From the IMG/VR virus record IMGVR_UViG_3300037313_000591, positions 1 to 57,794 of that record: DNA of 57,794 nt; one strand, given 5' to 3'. Within the stretch, counting starts at the first letter, position 1. Every line of letters starts with the position of its first letter. The notes under the pieces were generated by a model. The model was given only the letters and a program-made list of their open reading frames with translations. It made no database searches and had not been told where the DNA came from. Shown here piece by piece: positions 54,797 through 57,794 of the stretch. A program made the translations under genes and the position numbers. This DNA is from a virus (Duplodnaviria; Caudoviricetes).

Positions 54797-55122
54797 CTGA
54801 TCGTGAGCTGTTAGACCTGGCAGCAAAGGCGGCGGGGATTACTCTTGATTGGCAAGAAGGCTGGAACGGGATGCCTGACTCCGCATCAAATATGGGCCGT
54901 GTTTGGAGCCCTTTGACCGACGATGGCGACGCGCTGCGGCTAGCCGTGAAGCTGAACATGGAAGTATGTTCGCATGCGGACGCCGATATTGGAGGTATTT
55001 CCTGGGCTGATGCGTCGGGCCACGCTTTCGCTTATATCGAATTGCCTCACGACGGCGACCAGATGGCCGCAACCCGTCGCGCCATCGTCCGCGCTGCCGC
55101 TGAAATCGGGAGGTCCGAATGA
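54793..55122 (+). CDS. conserved phage hypothetical protein
   Basis: MTDRELL.LAAKAAG...W.PLTDDGDALRLAVKL...ATRRAIVRAAAEIG. Confidence 0.7.
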   Translation: MTDRELLDLAAKAAGITLDWQEGWNGMPDSASNMGRVWSPLTDDGDALRLAVKLNMEVCSHADADIGGISWADASGHAFAYIELPHDGDQMAATRRAIVRAAAEIGRSE

Positions 55123-55478
55123 ACGCCCCAACCAACCAAGCAATCCTCGAAGAAGCCCCGCAAGCCGACAGCCCCTTCGTCACCGTCATGAAGACATGGG
55201 CACGCTGGATGACACTAACCGACAGGCAGCACGCAGGCGGCTGGGCGCACCCGCAGGACGTGAAGGAGTTTATGCGCGCAGGGGAGGCGGTCGATACGAT
55301 GGTTAACGATTTGCCAAGTTCGCACCGGTGGGCGATCTACCGGGCGTATGGCATCGCTACCGTGTGGCGTTTCCCGGCTTTGTCGCTGGCTGATACGGTG
55401 ATCGAGGCTGAGAACCTTCTGACGCCGAGGATGCTGCGGAACGTGGATGTGCGAAGATATTTCGCTGATTCCCGTTGA
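55119..55478 (+). CDS. putative late antiterminator/regulator (Q position)
   Basis: Last early-right gene, ahead of a promoter-terminator pair; W..W and D.M...L....R.AI pattern. Confidence 0.5.
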   Translation: MNAPTNQAILEEAPQADSPFVTVMKTWARWMTLTDRQHAGGWAHPQDVKEFMRAGEAVDTMVNDLPSSHRWAIYRAYGIATVWRFPALSLADTVIEAENLLTPRMLRNVDVRRYFADSR

Positions 55479-55484
55479 AAACTA

Positions 55485-55513
55485 TTGCGTTCGGAAAATA
55501 CTTATATTAGTAT
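55485..55513 (+). promoter_or_regulatory. candidate late promoter (pR'-like)
   Basis: TTGCGT, 17 bp, TAGTAT. Confidence 0.45.
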
Positions 55514-55551
55514 GGTTGAGCTAGATTCCGTTACTGCGCTCTAGCGACACG

Positions 55552-55587
55552 AAACCCGCCCCGAAAGGTCAGCGGGTTTTTGTTTTT
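55552..55587 (+). terminator. tR'-like terminator
   Basis: AAACCCGC-(CC GAAA GG)-GCGGGTTT followed by TTGTTTTT. Confidence 0.8.
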
Positions 55588-55720
55588 CGGCGTCATCCAG
55601 TACACGGGCAATAAAACCCACTCTGGCACCGGCACGCCGCCAACTGCCGGTGACACCTAAATCATAGGAGCTAGCAATGAAGCGAGAAGGTATCGGTTTG
55701 GCTGGTGGTATCGGCGGCGC

Positions 55721-55951
55721 ATGAGAATCTCTACGTTCACCGTTCTGATCTACTTCGGCATGCTGGTCTTCGATGCTGCCGTACTTGGCGGCTTCGCGTA
55801 CCTCGTTGCTGAAAGAGGATGGTCGGCATGGTGGATGCTGTTGGCAGTCCTGATGTGCTCAGGATCGAATCCTAGCAAGATCATCGAAGCGAATAAGGAG
55901 GCGTCATGCGTAACGAAGGTGCAGGAATCGCCTGACAATAAGGCCAAGTAG
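55721..55951 (+). CDS. small two-TM membrane protein
   Basis: Hydrophobic, GWSAWW motif; coupled to a 15-codon upstream ORF (55677..55724) that carries the RBS. Confidence 0.55.
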   Translation: MRISTFTVLIYFGMLVFDAAVLGGFAYLVAERGWSAWWMLLAVLMCSGSNPSKIIEANKEASCVTKVQESPDNKAK

Positions 55952-56306
55952 CGCGTAACTTCGGGATAAGCGCGAGCCTAGTGAAAGCCTAGGCGCCACA
56001 CGCATGCATCCAGCAGAAGTGATCTAGACACTTGAGGCGTCAGTCTCCGCTGGGTGCAGCCGTGTGGTAAATGCGTAGGGAATTCCGGTTGATGACCGGC
56101 TAAGCCGTAGTCCATGACGCCGAACGCGACGGCAAACTCCTCTTTGGAAGTCATGGCGACCACACGCTTCACTGGCGTAACCAGTGACCACACGCATGCA
56201 GGCTTGCTGGAATTCCGAGAGGGTCAACCCGGTGGCCCGGTAGTGAGTCTACAGCCGTGTGGTTAAGCGCAGCAATGCGTAGGGTCGGGAGATCCCAGTC
56301 GCCACT
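55951..56306 (+). ncRNA. late-leader structured RNA array
   Basis: Two CCACACGCATGCA...CAGCCGTGTGG modules, several hairpins, and an rRNA H62-like hairpin. Confidence 0.6.
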
Positions 56307-56343
56307 AATTGTCTCCTCCAAGACGTCCTAGTTTTGGATTTCG

Positions 56344-56376
56344 CCGCCTGTCGCAGCAATGCACAGGCGGTTTTTT
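56344..56376 (+). terminator. intrinsic terminator closing the RNA array
   Basis: CCGCCTGT..GCA-GCAA-TGC..ACAGGCGG followed by TTTTTT. Confidence 0.8.
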
Positions 56377-56434
56377 ATTTAGAGGTTCGCCGCACGAAGC
56401 AGCGCGGCTAGCCTCAACACGATTGAGGCAACCA

Positions 56435-57794
56435 ATGCCGTTCCCGCCAGAGCTTCCTGTCCCGACCTACGCGAAGGGCACGATGCCCGTTGGTACGCCG
56501 GTTAAGGTGTTTGCGCCGTACGTTGTGCCAGCATTTACCTTGCCGGCAGTCTCGCTGGGCGGAATCGTCACCAGCGTGACGCTGCAAAGCACGACGGCGA
56601 TGGATCAGGCTAATGTGCCGTTCACGTTTGCGCAGCCCTTCAAGCGCGGCGACCTGGCTCCAGACTGCGCTCTTGTCGGCGCGATCGCTGGCAAGACGGA
56701 TATTCCGCTACAGGTGAACGTCAAGGCGACGCACGATGACGGATCGGTGCGCCATGCGATCATCAGTGGCGTGCTACCGAGTCTGCCAGCCAGCGCGTCG
56801 GTTGTGATGGGTCTGAAGCGTTCCGCTCCGGTAGCGAAGGGTGCGAACGTTCCGCTGCCGAGCAATCTACCGTCGGCAAAGCTGACCATCGCAGGCGTCG
56901 CATACACCGCCGCACCGAAGGCCGGCGATTTTACCTACGTCTGGCTGGCCGGTTCGCTACTAAGCGACAGTGTAGCCAACGTCTCGTTCGTTGACGCCTC
57001 GGGAAATCCTCACCCGACCCTGACCGCACAGTTCTCGGTGCGCGCTTCTAGCAGTGGCGCCGTACGCGTCGATGCCGTCATTGAGCACTGCAAGGCATAT
57101 CAGTCGACCGCTGACATCACGTACGACGTCACCATCGCAGCTAATGGCGCGACCGTGTACAGTCAGGCTGGTCTCGTCCACACGCCTTGCGCCCGCTGGA
57201 AGAAATCGTTCTGGTACGGCACCGCGCCGGCTCTGCACATCAAGCACGACACCGCATACCTGATCGCTACCAGGGCTGTACCGAACTACGACCAGAGCAT
57301 CAAGATTTCGGAATCCGTGCTGGCCGGGTACGCGACGCAACTCGCGAGCGGCAAGTTCGCTCCGATGGGTTTCGGTAACCTGCAGCCGGCAATGCCTACG
57401 ACAGGCGGACGCCCGGATCTCGGCATCATGCCGGATACCTACGTCGCAGCAGTCCTCTCGATGGACAAGCGCGCCAAGGACATCATGCTCGCCTCCGCCG
57501 ATGTGGGAGGCAGCTGGACTGCGCATCGCCGCGACGACAGCAGCGGCCCGATGAAGGGCATGCCGCTCAGTGTTCTGTGCTTCCCGTACTCTACGGTCTA
57601 CGGTAGCTCAGGCGACTGCGCAAACCCGATGACGGGCAAGAACGAATACCTGCCGAAGCTGGTAACGACGTCGAAGGGCAACTTCGACAGCAGCCACCAG
57701 CCCGGGTTGTACTACCTGCCATATCTCCTGACTGGTGATTTCTACTACCTGGAAGGCCTGCACTTCTGGTGCGCCTGGAACGCCTACAACTCGA
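56435..57794 (+). CDS. 5' part of the stand-alone PcRGLX/YetA-like protein (continues at position 1)
   Basis: ATG 56435 after GAGG, open to the window end; QVNVKATHDDGSVRHAI, HPTLTAQFSVR, GGRPDLGIMPDTY, SHQP..Y.PYLLTGD. Confidence 0.85.
   Translation, partial: MPFPPELPVPTYAKGTMPVGTPVKVFAPYVVPAFTLPAVSLGGIVTSVTLQSTTAMDQANVPFTFAQPFKRGDLAPDCALVGAIAGKTDIPLQVNVKATHDDGSVRHAIISGVLPSLPASASVVMGLKRSAPVAKGANVPLPSNLPSAKLTIAGVAYTAAPKAGDFTYVWLAGSLLSDSVANVSFVDASGNPHPTLTAQFSVRASSSGAVRVDAVIEHCKAYQSTADITYDVTIAANGATVYSQAGLVHTPCARWKKSFWYGTAPALHIKHDTAYLIATRAVPNYDQSIKISESVLAGYATQLASGKFAPMGFGNLQPAMPTTGGRPDLGIMPDTYVAAVLSMDKRAKDIMLASADVGGSWTAHRRDDSSGPMKGMPLSVLCFPYSTVYGSSGDCANPMTGKNEYLPKLVTTSKGNFDSSHQPGLYYLPYLLTGDFYYLEGLHFWCAWNAYNS

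What the first reader, a model, noticed from the sequence alone, without database searches (positions are those of the whole stretch)
55951..55973. Isolated mimic of large-subunit rRNA helix 62 in the late transcript
Seen: GCGC-GTAACTTCGGGATAA-GCGC. Established (from memory): 23S/28S rRNA H62 is a stem enclosing GUAACUUCGGGA(G/U)AA (E. coli GUGCC-GUAACUUCGGGAGAA-GGCAC). The 15-nt core is kept while the closing stem has a different but fully paired sequence, and the flanks are not rRNA-like. That points to a selected structural mimic rather than a captured rRNA fragment. Inference: a decoy for an rRNA-targeting toxin, nuclease or ribosome-binding factor, or reuse of the fold as a tertiary module.
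Basis: partly seen in the sequence, partly recalled or inferred. Interest (0 to 1): 0.75.

Follow-up and report, generated by a model that had tools for sequence, protein, structure and literature searches.

The report
rRNA-like hairpin module in phage RNA
A 23-base hairpin that copies the tip of a universally conserved ribosomal RNA helix is real and recurs, with changing stems, in many uncultured phages as one building block of a long non-coding leader RNA ahead of their late genes; what it binds is still unknown.

Summary
GCGC-GTAACTTCGGGATAA-GCGC lies at 55951-55973 on the + strand. Its 15-nt cap equals the tip of 23S rRNA helix 62 (H62), and nothing else nearby is rRNA-like.

It is not chance. 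In IMG/VR, 27 of 92 distinct occurrences of the 15-mer have a closing stem of 4 bp or more, against 3.7 expected. There are 14 stem types, and the stems covary. The cap varies only at the N of GA(N)AA.

It is not an isolated hairpin. It is the first module of a roughly 430-nt ORF-free, strongly structured RNA (55951-56376). That RNA sits between a promoter/terminator pair behind a 119-aa gene and the packaging genes. It ends in a CU-rich double hairpin with terminator that resembles the Betaproteobacteria toxic small RNA family. Only 5 of 33 related phages carry the H62-like module. Other phages put plain hairpins in the same slot, or use the module to cap terminators or place it beside tRNAs.

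Best reading: a portable, sequence-fixed structural cap, made of a UAA/GAN-type loop and a cUUCGg tetraloop, reused as a folding or stability module. A ribosome-directed decoy is not excluded and not supported. Transcription could not be tested. No Rfam family covers the module or the leader as a whole.

The parts
55119..55478 (+). 119-aa gene of unknown family, last gene of the early-right block. It is a candidate late regulator by position only.
   Evidence: ORF. No Pfam or PHROG hit. 69 homologues, all 'hypothetical', two named from Pseudoduganella and Massilia. AF2 model pLDDT 81; Foldseek PDB best E 1.2.
55475..55502 (+). Promoter-like site (TTGAAA-16-AATACT) directly behind the 119-aa gene.
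   Evidence: The scan is not enriched over shuffles: 1 found against 0.8 expected. A TAGGATAT-type element sits at the same place in relatives L124, L131, L135 and L142 (by eye).
55552..55587 (+). Intrinsic-terminator-like hairpin with T-run (AAACCCGC...GCGGGTTTTTGTTTTT). Together with the promoter it forms a pR'/tR'-like pair.
   Evidence: Sequence. The same hairpin occurs in L121 and L131. The tool's own terminator scan did not list it.
55721..55951 (+). 76-aa ORF with hydrophobic stretches. Its stop codon overlaps the start of the hairpin.
   Evidence: No family hit.
55951..55973 (+). Module A, the finding. A 4-bp stem GCGC/GCGC closes the cap G-UAA-C(UUCG)G-GAU-AA, which equals the tip of 23S H62.
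55976..55994 (+). Module B: a 6-bp hairpin with a conserved 7-nt loop UGAAAGC (T-arm-sized).
   Evidence: Five of its 6 pairs covary in 21 sequences. The 16-mer CCGGTGAAAGYCCGGC occurs in at least 116 viral contigs.
55996..56067 (+). Module C1: a long hairpin bracketed by CCACACG...CGUGUGG.
   Evidence: Centroid fold. The same bracket occurs in relatives. The bracket differs but stays complementary in L062, L087, L153 and L155 (by eye).
56112..56156 (+). Hairpin whose loop carries a first CU-rich stretch (AAACUCCUCUUUGG, 56134-56147).
   Evidence: One compensatory G-C to U-A change against L120 (by eye).
56188..56262 (+). Module C2: a second CCACACG...CGUGUGG hairpin.
56267..56305 (+). Two short hairpins (GCGCAGCAAUGCGU, then UCGGGAGAUCCCAGUC) followed by CGCCAC.
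   Evidence: The same order occurs in L106 and L130.
56310..56376 (+). 3' module: single-stranded UGUCUCCUCC, a small hairpin, then an intrinsic terminator. It resembles the Betaproteobacteria toxic small RNA family.
   Evidence: RF02278 scores 41.9 bits (gathering score 50), E 7.8e-7, model positions 1-64 of 64.
56432..57794 (+). First protein gene after the leader. It has a PcRGLX-like (polysaccharide-lyase-like) N-terminal domain and runs over the record's end into 3-1007.

Best explanation
The 23 bases encode an RNA hairpin on the + strand. A short Watson-Crick stem closes a 15-nt cap that has the sequence of the tip of 23S rRNA H62. The cap is a C(UUCG)G tetraloop stacked on a 5'-UAA/5'-GAN internal loop, with a G/AA closure.

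Shown here:
- It is a portable, sequence-fixed module that selection keeps in many uncultured phages.
- In this phage it is the first module of a roughly 430-nt non-coding leader (55951-56376).
- The leader is a chain of separable hairpin modules. It ends in a CU-rich, toxic-small-RNA-like double hairpin with terminator, just before the late and packaging genes.

Inferred:
- The cap works in cis as a structural element.
- As H62 does in the ribosome, it would offer a rigid, nuclease-resistant helix end with a stack of adenines in the minor groove.
- That stack could dock into another helix and help the leader, or the small RNA cut from it, to fold and survive.
- On this reading the likeness to H62 reflects reuse of one very sequence-specific fold. 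Its first origin may have been an rRNA fragment. It would not be a need to imitate the ribosome.
For: Not chance:
- 27 of 92 distinct IMG/VR occurrences have an adjacent stem of at least 4 bp.
- Re-dealing the flanks 2000 times gives 3.66 +/- 1.76, maximum 10.
- There are 14 stem types.

Structure is kept:
- In 21 sequences, 96.1% of cells are paired against 78.4% in shuffles.
- 8 of 11 pairs change on both sides, and 0 of 500 shuffles reach this.
- Slid controls are 12-38% paired.
- RNAalifold finds the same two hairpins on its own.

Strand: five G-U cells fit the + strand.

The cap is fixed:
- In 1.27 Mb of loci found by other criteria, stem-closed matches have 0-1 mismatch (7 hits, all at N) or at least 3 mismatches (9 hits, noise). 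None has 2.
- Anchoring on the stem plus module B with the cap left free gave 5 of 5 exact caps in IMG/VR.
- N is T in 25, G in 3 and C in 2 of 30 distinct copies.

The module is portable and replaceable:
- Only 5 of 33 relatives carry it, though most keep the rest of the leader.
- The slot before module B holds plain UUCG, CACG or GAAG-loop hairpins elsewhere. One search shows this, and one search gave 5 of 10 hits plain and 2 of 10 with the exact cap.
- In AT-rich phages the module caps terminator-like hairpins or lies beside tRNAs.
- Stem-closed copies lie in ORF-poor DNA, with a median open frame of 98 codons. Stemless copies are mostly coding, with a median of 293.

The leader is structured: MFE -184.5 against -157.5 +/- 5.2, z -5.24.

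Against: - No RNA data exist: whether it is transcribed, and where the RNA ends, are unknown.
- The nearest-neighbour energy model sees nothing special in the hairpin alone (-6.0 kcal/mol, z 0.10). The claimed stability therefore rests on non-canonical pairs known from H62, not on a computation here.
- No receptor helix was identified.
- That H62's loop is a UAA/GAN motif is my reading of the sequence signature. The papers I saw list other 23S examples, not H62.
- If only a stable cap were needed, variants such as other UNCG loops would be expected among the H62-like caps, and none was seen. Full invariance in phages of 34-65% G+C also fits recognition by a universal partner.
- The sequences are related, so the shuffle statistics overstate significance. 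Most copies were found by the exact 15-mer, and the independent tests of invariance are small (7, 5 and 2 copies).
Confidence: 0.55

Rival explanations
1. Trans-acting H62 mimic. The cap is kept identical to H62 because it binds a partner of H62. Candidates are helix 44 of free 30S subunits (bridge B6), a factor that sits on H62 (YchF/OLA1-type GTPase, an RH39-type helicase), or an rRNA-directed toxin. It would thereby titrate that partner or tether the leader RNA to it.
For: - All 14 non-N cap positions are fixed in phages of very different G+C and context. This is the pattern expected for a universal partner.
- H62 forms bridge B6 with h44, and replacing 1685-1703 is lethal (PMC3592451, table passage).
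- YchF contacts the H62 backbone at G1703-A1705 (PMC11814078, abstract and passages).
- A chloroplast helicase binding probe contains the H62 hairpin (PMC7384196, methods passage).
- The same RNA carries two CU-rich stretches resembling the anti-Shine-Dalgarno sequence.
Against: - There is no direct evidence of binding.
- Most relatives do without the module (28 of 33).
- Plain hairpins fill the same slot elsewhere.
- The YchF contacts are to the backbone and also need uL14 and bL19.
- A single A-minor patch is a weak handle in trans.
- No known toxin targets H62 (recalled).
- No other part of the RNA is rRNA-like.
Confidence: 0.15
2. End-protecting or boundary hairpin. The module serves mainly as a barrier to 3' exonucleases for the upstream mRNA, or as the protected 5' end of a processed small RNA. 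It would have no tertiary partner.
For: - In the window the stem starts in the stop codon of the upstream ORF.
- 13 of 31 stem-closed copies have an open frame of at least 60 codons ending within 60 nt upstream.
- In L038 and L111 the cap tops terminator-like hairpins.
- C(UUCG)G hairpins in phage T4 intercistronic regions are a classic case (recalled, Tuerk et al. 1988, not seen here).
Against: - 18 of 31 copies have no such ORF end.
- In the short forms the module lies inside the leader, between other hairpins.
- A 4-bp stem is a weak barrier, and the computed energy is ordinary.
- This reading does not explain why the UAA/GAN part is fixed.
Confidence: 0.15
3. A captured rRNA fragment without function of its own: a piece of some bacterium's 23S (H62, perhaps with H63) picked up by a phage and carried along.
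For: One real 23S (L262) has the identical AGCGC-cap-GCGCT, followed at once by a short hairpin, the same layout as modules A and B. One viral contig (L104) carries 23S-like sequence that begins exactly at the cap.
Against: - Compensatory stem changes among phage copies, with an unchanged cap, show selection after any capture.
- The flanks carry no rRNA signal.
- The H62 stems of the order searched are (a/c)cc/gg(t/g) in 23 of 24 copies, unlike the phage's. That this is the host's order is only my guess: it contains a Hydrogenophilus genome, and the tool names no order.
- Capture may still be the origin.
Confidence: 0.05
4. Chance match of a 15-mer to rRNA.
For: Short exact matches between a 58-kb window and 4.5 kb of rRNA are not rare in principle. 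59 of 92 distinct IMG/VR occurrences are stemless and mostly coding, so they are chance hits.
Against: The window's copy belongs to the stem-closed, covarying, non-coding class. The expected count in the window is 0.06 even with 2 mismatches allowed.
Confidence: 0.02

Closest known systems
Helix 62 of 23S/28S rRNA (E. coli 1685-1703; intersubunit bridge B6 with 16S h44)
   Same: The 15-nt cap is identical, including which position may vary (G or U in rRNA; U, G or C in phages). It is closed by a covarying Watson-Crick stem.
   Different: It is not part of an rRNA, and there are no H61 or H63 flanks. It lies in a phage leader next to a T-arm-like hairpin. Its stem is only 4-9 bp. Its partner is unknown.
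UAA/GAN internal-loop motif (Lee, Gutell and Russell 2006, cited in PMC2615604 and PMC12550061)
   Same: The sequence signature is 5'-UAA-3' opposite 5'-GAN-3' with N free. [quoted passage not shown]
   Different: The fold was not tested here. On the stem side the loop is closed by G opposite AA, not by a Watson-Crick pair. The papers I saw do not list H62 among the examples.
Betaproteobacteria toxic small RNA (Rfam RF02278; ncS03, ncS05, ncS27 and ncS62 of Burkholderia cenocepacia)
   Same: The 3' module (56310-56376) aligns over the whole 64-position model. It has a single-stranded CU-rich stretch, two hairpins and a terminator (PMC5688073 and PMC4603805 passages).
   Different: It scores 41.9 bits, below the gathering score of 50, and none of 20 related loci reached that score. 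Here it is the tail of a much longer modular RNA in a phage. The H62-like module is not part of RF02278.
Late leader of lambdoid phages (pR' - 6S RNA - tR' under Q) and the modular late leaders noted earlier in this scan
   Same: The position matches: a promoter-like site and a terminator directly behind the last early gene, then a non-coding stretch, then the packaging genes.
   Different: The 119-aa protein matches no Q family or fold. There is no sequence likeness to lambda's leader. No antitermination was shown.
C(UUCG)G hairpins in phage T4 intercistronic regions
   Same: Both are extra-stable tetraloop hairpins placed between phage genes.
   Different: Here a further 9 fixed nucleotides around the tetraloop are conserved, giving the complete H62 tip.

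Membership tests
23S rRNA helix 62 | Cap sequence GUAACUUCGGGA(G/U)AA | tested here: met
   Window 55955-55969 is identical to the cap in real 23S loci.
23S rRNA helix 62 | Cap closed by a Watson-Crick helix that covaries | tested here: met
   GCGC/GCGC in the window. Three of 4 stem pairs change on both sides among 21 phage copies. There are 14 stem types.
23S rRNA helix 62 | Embedded in 23S domain IV (H61 upstream strand ...GGCAAAUU..., H63 downstream) | tested here: not met
   No LSU rRNA hit at E up to 10. No shared 11-mers outside 55952-55973 beyond chance.
23S rRNA helix 62 | Contacts 16S h44 as bridge B6 | not testable with these tools
   The function is known from PMC3592451.
UAA/GAN internal loop | 5'-UAA-3' opposite 5'-GAN-3', with N variable | tested here: met
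   The cap reads G-UAA-C ... G-GAU-AA. N is T in 25, G in 3 and C in 2 of 30 distinct copies, and all other positions are fixed.
UAA/GAN internal loop | Flanked by Watson-Crick pairs on both sides | tested here: inconclusive
   There is a C-G pair on the tetraloop side. On the stem side G faces AA before the first Watson-Crick pair.
UAA/GAN internal loop | Cross-strand AAA stack and A-minor docking in 3D | not testable with these tools
   No RNA 3D tool is available. The nearest-neighbour fold treats the cap as an open 15-nt loop.
Rfam RF02278 Betaproteobacteria toxic small RNA (3' module only) | Score at or above the gathering score (50 bits) | tested here: not met
   41.9 bits, E 7.8e-7. There were 0 hits at gathering score in the window and in 20 related loci.
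Rfam RF02278 Betaproteobacteria toxic small RNA (3' module only) | Unpaired CU-rich stretch, two hairpins, the second a terminator | tested here: met
   The alignment covers model positions 1-64 of 64 with both hairpins and the U-run.
Lambda-type Q-controlled late leader | Promoter and terminator directly behind the regulator gene, upstream of the packaging genes | tested here: inconclusive
   A promoter-like site at 55475-55502 and a terminator-like hairpin at 55552-55587 are seen and recur in relatives. The scan is not enriched over shuffles, and nothing was tested functionally.
Lambda-type Q-controlled late leader | A Q-family antiterminator protein | tested here: not met
   The 119-aa protein has no Pfam or PHROG hit. 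Foldseek PDB best E is 1.2.

The most novel reading that the evidence does not exclude
The cap is a true ribosome-directed mimic. By presenting the same adenines that H62 lays into helix 44 of 16S rRNA (bridge B6), the late leader RNA would dock on free 30S subunits, or soak up a factor that reads H62. Its two CU-rich, anti-Shine-Dalgarno-like stretches would meanwhile pair with ribosome-binding sites. In this way a phage RNA built from pieces that imitate both ribosomal RNAs would redirect translation late in infection.
Probability: 0.08. Interest if true: 0.85.

Novelty: new variant of a known kind. Interest (0 to 1): 0.5.

Why it matters
It shows that one of the most conserved hairpin tips of the ribosome also exists outside the ribosome, as a free-standing, selected building block of phage RNAs. 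That gives a clean natural test of how far an rRNA 3D module is portable.

It also adds a defined, easily searched module to the still uncatalogued modular leader RNAs that many temperate phages carry in front of their late genes.

If the cap turned out to bind the small subunit or an H62-reading factor, it would be a new way for a phage to touch translation. If it is purely structural, it is a compact natural stabilising cap of possible use in RNA design.

Tried and rejected
RNA evidence: no RNA holder listed. Only 8 DNA runs from soil or rhizosphere were found.

Known RNA families:
- Rfam at gathering score gave 0 hits in the window.
- It gave only tRNAs in 20 related loci.
- At E up to 10 it gave only the RF02278-like tail and two chance hits.
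- ARAGORN found no tRNA or tmRNA in the window.
- Likenesses I recalled to the cobalamin riboswitch T-loop and to the RNase P 'GAAAGUCCGG' box found no support in Rfam and were dropped.

Named phages:
- blastn of the region gave nothing relevant in 50,697 records.
- tblastn of the 119-aa protein gave nothing.
- TerL is at best 45.7% identical to Microcystis, Acetobacter and Brucella phages.

Hosts:
- The single genome-contig scan (GCGTAACTTCGGGANAAGC) was swamped by real 23S genes whose H62 stem also ends in GC.
- The same pattern in 95 and 401 genomes of two orders hit only the seed genomes' own rRNA.
- The host guess (Oxalobacteraceae) rests on two named homologues.

The 119-aa protein: the AF2 model is good, but Foldseek found no significant match. 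There are only weak sigma-factor chains with probability up to 0.41.

Other checks:
- The hairpin alone has an ordinary computed energy.
- The link to ORF ends is ambiguous, at 13 of 31.
- Earlier findings by place and by sequence returned nothing.

Literature:
- 'guaacuucggga' is in 1 paper, on a chloroplast helicase.
- 'gtaacttcggga' is in 27 papers. The 15 listed, judged by title and abstract only, look like rRNA primers or sequences, and none concerns phage.
- Searches for 'UAA GAN' gave 0 because of the slash. 'GAN internal loop', 'GAN motif' and 'cross-strand AAA stack' gave 41 papers.
- Supplementary tables of PMC2615604, which may list H62 among UA_handle or UAA/GAN motifs, could not be seen.

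Full report
**What is there.** The window is a complete IMG/VR phage record of 57,794 bases with about 59% G+C. It is circularly permuted. Early-right genes run on the + strand to about 55.5 kb, and the small and large terminase genes lie at 1534 and 1946. The stem begins inside the TAG stop codon of a 76-aa ORF. The 15-mer occurs once in the window. Even with two mismatches allowed, shuffles give 0.06 matches.

**Is the cap really H62?** I did not rely on memory for this.
- A 23S-like stretch in one viral contig reads ggtgcc-GTAACTTCGGGAGAA-ggcac (L109).
- A scan of bacterial genomes for GC-cap-GC returned 120 hits, of which at least 116 have 23S flanks. N is T in 85 and G in 31.
- In 41 genomes of the large order that holds a Hydrogenophilus genome, 24 rRNA copies read (a/c)cc-cap-gg(t/g) or, once, gc-cap-gc. 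N is G in 19 and T in 5.
- PMC3592451 (table passage) names H62-h44 as bridge B6 and reports that replacing 23S 1685-1703 is lethal.

So the recalled identity is right. The real-rRNA data also correct one argument. H62's own stem covaries among bacteria, and one genuine 23S (L262) has exactly AGCGC-cap-GCGCT. A stem unlike E. coli's therefore does not by itself exclude capture.

**Are the flanks rRNA-like?** No. Rfam finds no LSU rRNA match at E up to 10 in 55500-56500. Among the 11-mers of 55940-56385, only those in 55952-55973 are shared with all 121 rRNA loci. Three other single 11-mers, shared with 5-19 loci, are within what shuffles give.

- Of 92 occurrences distinct by their 10-nt flanks, 27 have an adjacent closing stem of 4 bp or more.
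- When upstream and downstream flanks are re-dealt among loci, the count is 3.66 +/- 1.76, with a maximum of 10 in 2000 trials.
- The 27 use 14 different stems. One of these, TGCC/GGCA, is the real-rRNA piece.
- Stem-closed copies sit in ORF-poor DNA, with a median longest open frame over the site of 98 codons.
- The 59 copies with 0-1 bp of stem are mostly inside long frames, with a median of 293 codons and 45 of 59 at 150 codons or more. These are the chance hits.

In an alignment of 21 copies with their next hairpin, 96.1% of cells pair, against 78.4% in shuffles. Eight of 11 pairs change on both sides, and no shuffle of 500 reaches this. Sliding the partners drops pairing to 12-38%. RNAalifold predicts the same two hairpins unaided. 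Five G-U cells favour the + strand as the RNA strand. The sequences are related, so these shuffle figures overstate significance. The many distinct stems in very different genomes (locus G+C 0.34-0.65) carry the argument.

**How fixed is the cap?** Most copies were found through the exact 15-mer, so I looked for independent samples.
- In 1.27 Mb of loci collected by a neighbouring protein or by the next hairpin, stem-closed matches have 0-1 mismatch (7 hits, always at the N of GA(N)AA) or 3-4 mismatches (9 hits, unrelated sequences). None has 2.
- Anchoring on AGCGC...GCGC plus the next hairpin, with the cap left free, gave 34 IMG/VR hits. Five of them have the complete next hairpin, and all five carry the exact cap.
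- The same anchor with the full hairpin gave 10 metagenome hits. Two have the exact cap, five have a plain GAAG-loop hairpin in that slot, and three have something else.
- N is T in 25, G in 3 and C in 2 of 30 distinct stem-closed copies.

When the cap is H62-like it is exact. These independent samples are small.

**What it belongs to.** The hairpin is not isolated. From 55951 to the terminator at 56376 there is no credible ORF. The stretch folds far better than shuffles: -184.5 against -157.5 +/- 5.2 kcal/mol, z -5.24. The modules are listed below; coordinates are, and the folds and comparisons.

| Module | Coordinates | Description |
|---|---|---|
| A | 55951-55973 | The H62-like hairpin |
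| B | 55976-55994 | 6 bp with loop UGAAAGC; the size and G-C closure of a tRNA T-arm |
| C1, C2 | 55996-56067, 56188-56262 | Long hairpins bracketed by CCACACG...CGUGUGG |
| (unnamed) | 56112-56156 | Hairpin with a CU-rich loop |
| (unnamed) | 56267-56305 | Two short hairpins, then CGCCAC |
| 3' tail | 56310-56376 | UGUCUCCUCC, a small hairpin and a terminator |

The tail aligns over all 64 positions of Rfam RF02278 (Betaproteobacteria toxic small RNA). It scores 41.9 bits, below the gathering score of 50. Those RNAs are CU-rich double hairpins of 57-92 nt in Burkholderia (PMC5688073 and PMC4603805, passages).

Upstream, directly behind a 119-aa gene, lie a promoter-like site (55475-55502) and a terminator-like hairpin with a T-run (55552-55587). 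This pair recurs in relatives. The layout is that of a lambdoid late leader. However, the 119-aa protein matches no Q family or known fold, so 'late transcript' remains an inference from position.

**The module is portable.** Thirty-three viral contigs encode a relative of the 119-aa protein.
- Of the 16 A-less relatives scanned for the markers, 13 have the tail and 10 have a CCACAC...GUGUGG pair.
- Only 5 of the 33 have module A, with stems GCGC/GCGC or GCUGU/ACAGC and N = U, G or C.
- In short forms (L034, L002, L134, L132, L037, L103), A is followed by one hairpin and the tail.
- In some loci real tRNAs or T-arm-like pieces sit between modules.
- In AT-rich phages the same cap tops terminator-like hairpins (L038, and the second of two tandem copies in L111), or precedes tRNAs (L083, L008).
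- Module B's 16-mer alone occurs in at least 116 viral contigs, often after tRNAs. In one family it is preceded by a plain UUCG or CACG hairpin.

Earlier unchecked notes of this scan describe similar mix-and-match phage leaders in other genomes. I used them only as leads.

**How it most likely works.** The cap's signature is 5'-UAA-3' opposite 5'-GAN-3' with N free, stacked under a C(UUCG)G tetraloop. [quoted passage not shown] It forms a cross-strand adenine stack and long-range A-minor contacts (PMC12550061 and PMC2615604, passages). That H62 belongs to this class is my reading of the sequence, not something I saw stated. I recall, but did not see here, that A1689-A1690, the two adenines of this UAA, are the H62 residues that touch h44.

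The best-supported reading is that phages reuse this very sequence-specific fold as a rigid, stable helix cap with a docking surface. It would help a modular leader or small-RNA precursor fold or survive. The interchangeability with plain hairpins in the same slot favours a structural role over a specific decoy.

Against it:
- No receptor is known.
- The energy model sees nothing special.
- The complete invariance of 14 positions across very different phages would also fit a universal partner such as the 30S subunit or a factor that reads H62. YchF contacts H62, uL14 and bL19 (PMC11814078), and a chloroplast helicase probe contains H62 (PMC7384196).

That mimic reading stays open at low probability. 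Origin from a captured H62-H63 piece is possible (L262, L104) but would not change the verdict of present selection.

**Novelty.** No Rfam family covers module A or the leader as a whole. None of 50,697 deposited phage records has a relevant match. The text searches for the cap sequence found only rRNA primers and one chloroplast paper. The kind of thing, a recurrent rRNA 3D module in a modular phage leader, is known in outline. The exact H62 tip as a portable phage module appears undescribed.

**Verdict.** The finding is moderately interesting.

Noticed in passing
window 56310-56376 (+): A toxic-small-RNA-like tail (UGUCUCCUCC, hairpin, terminator) closes the leader just before the first late protein gene. 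RF02278 scores 41.9 bits, below the gathering score. The same tail ends the leader in most of the 16 A-less relatives scanned, sometimes directly after an ORF (L121, L133).
   Followed up: partly
window 55475-55587 (+): A promoter-like site and a strong terminator-like hairpin lie directly behind the 119-aa gene. They are conserved in relatives and form a lambda pR'/tR'-like arrangement, although the protein matches no known antiterminator family or fold.
   Followed up: partly
window 55976-55994; loci L276-L391: The hairpin CCGG-UGAAAGY-CCGG has a 7-nt loop and a G-C closure like a tRNA T-arm. It is itself a widespread phage module, with at least 116 viral contigs carrying the exact 16-mer. 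It often lies right after tRNA genes, and one large family reads ...GGGUCGCUCCCA-hairpin-GCAGGCAAAACGCGAUAG.
   Followed up: partly
window 56134-56147 and 56310-56320: The leader has two single-stranded CU-rich stretches (CUCCUCUUU and GUCUCCUCC) that resemble the anti-Shine-Dalgarno sequence. Target pairing was not examined.
   Followed up: no
window 56432-57794 continuing at 3-1007: A large gene with a PcRGLX-like (rhamnogalacturonan-lyase-like) N-terminal barrel lies between the leader and the terminase genes. It is a possible polysaccharide depolymerase in an unusual place, and it spans the ends of the record.
   Followed up: no
L104:1533 (IMG/VR contig): A viral contig in which E. coli-like 23S sequence begins exactly at the H62 cap, with unrelated sequence upstream. 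This may be an assembly chimera or a captured rRNA piece.
   Followed up: no
L111:1357-1410: Two copies of the exact cap lie 36 bases apart in an AT-rich phage. The second sits at the tip of a terminator-like hairpin followed by a T-run.
   Followed up: no
L262 (genome contigs, real 23S): A genuine 23S gene whose H62 reads AGCGC-cap-GCGCT, identical to the phage stem. It is followed at once by a short H63 hairpin, the same two-hairpin layout as modules A and B.
   Followed up: partly
L030:1644-1735, L033:2046-2135, L132:3467-3563: Over-long 'tRNAs' (90-97 nt; Tyr and Gln by ARAGORN) are embedded between leader modules. In L030 the tRNA-Tyr with encoded CCA stands exactly where other loci have a hairpin followed by CCACCA.
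   Followed up: no
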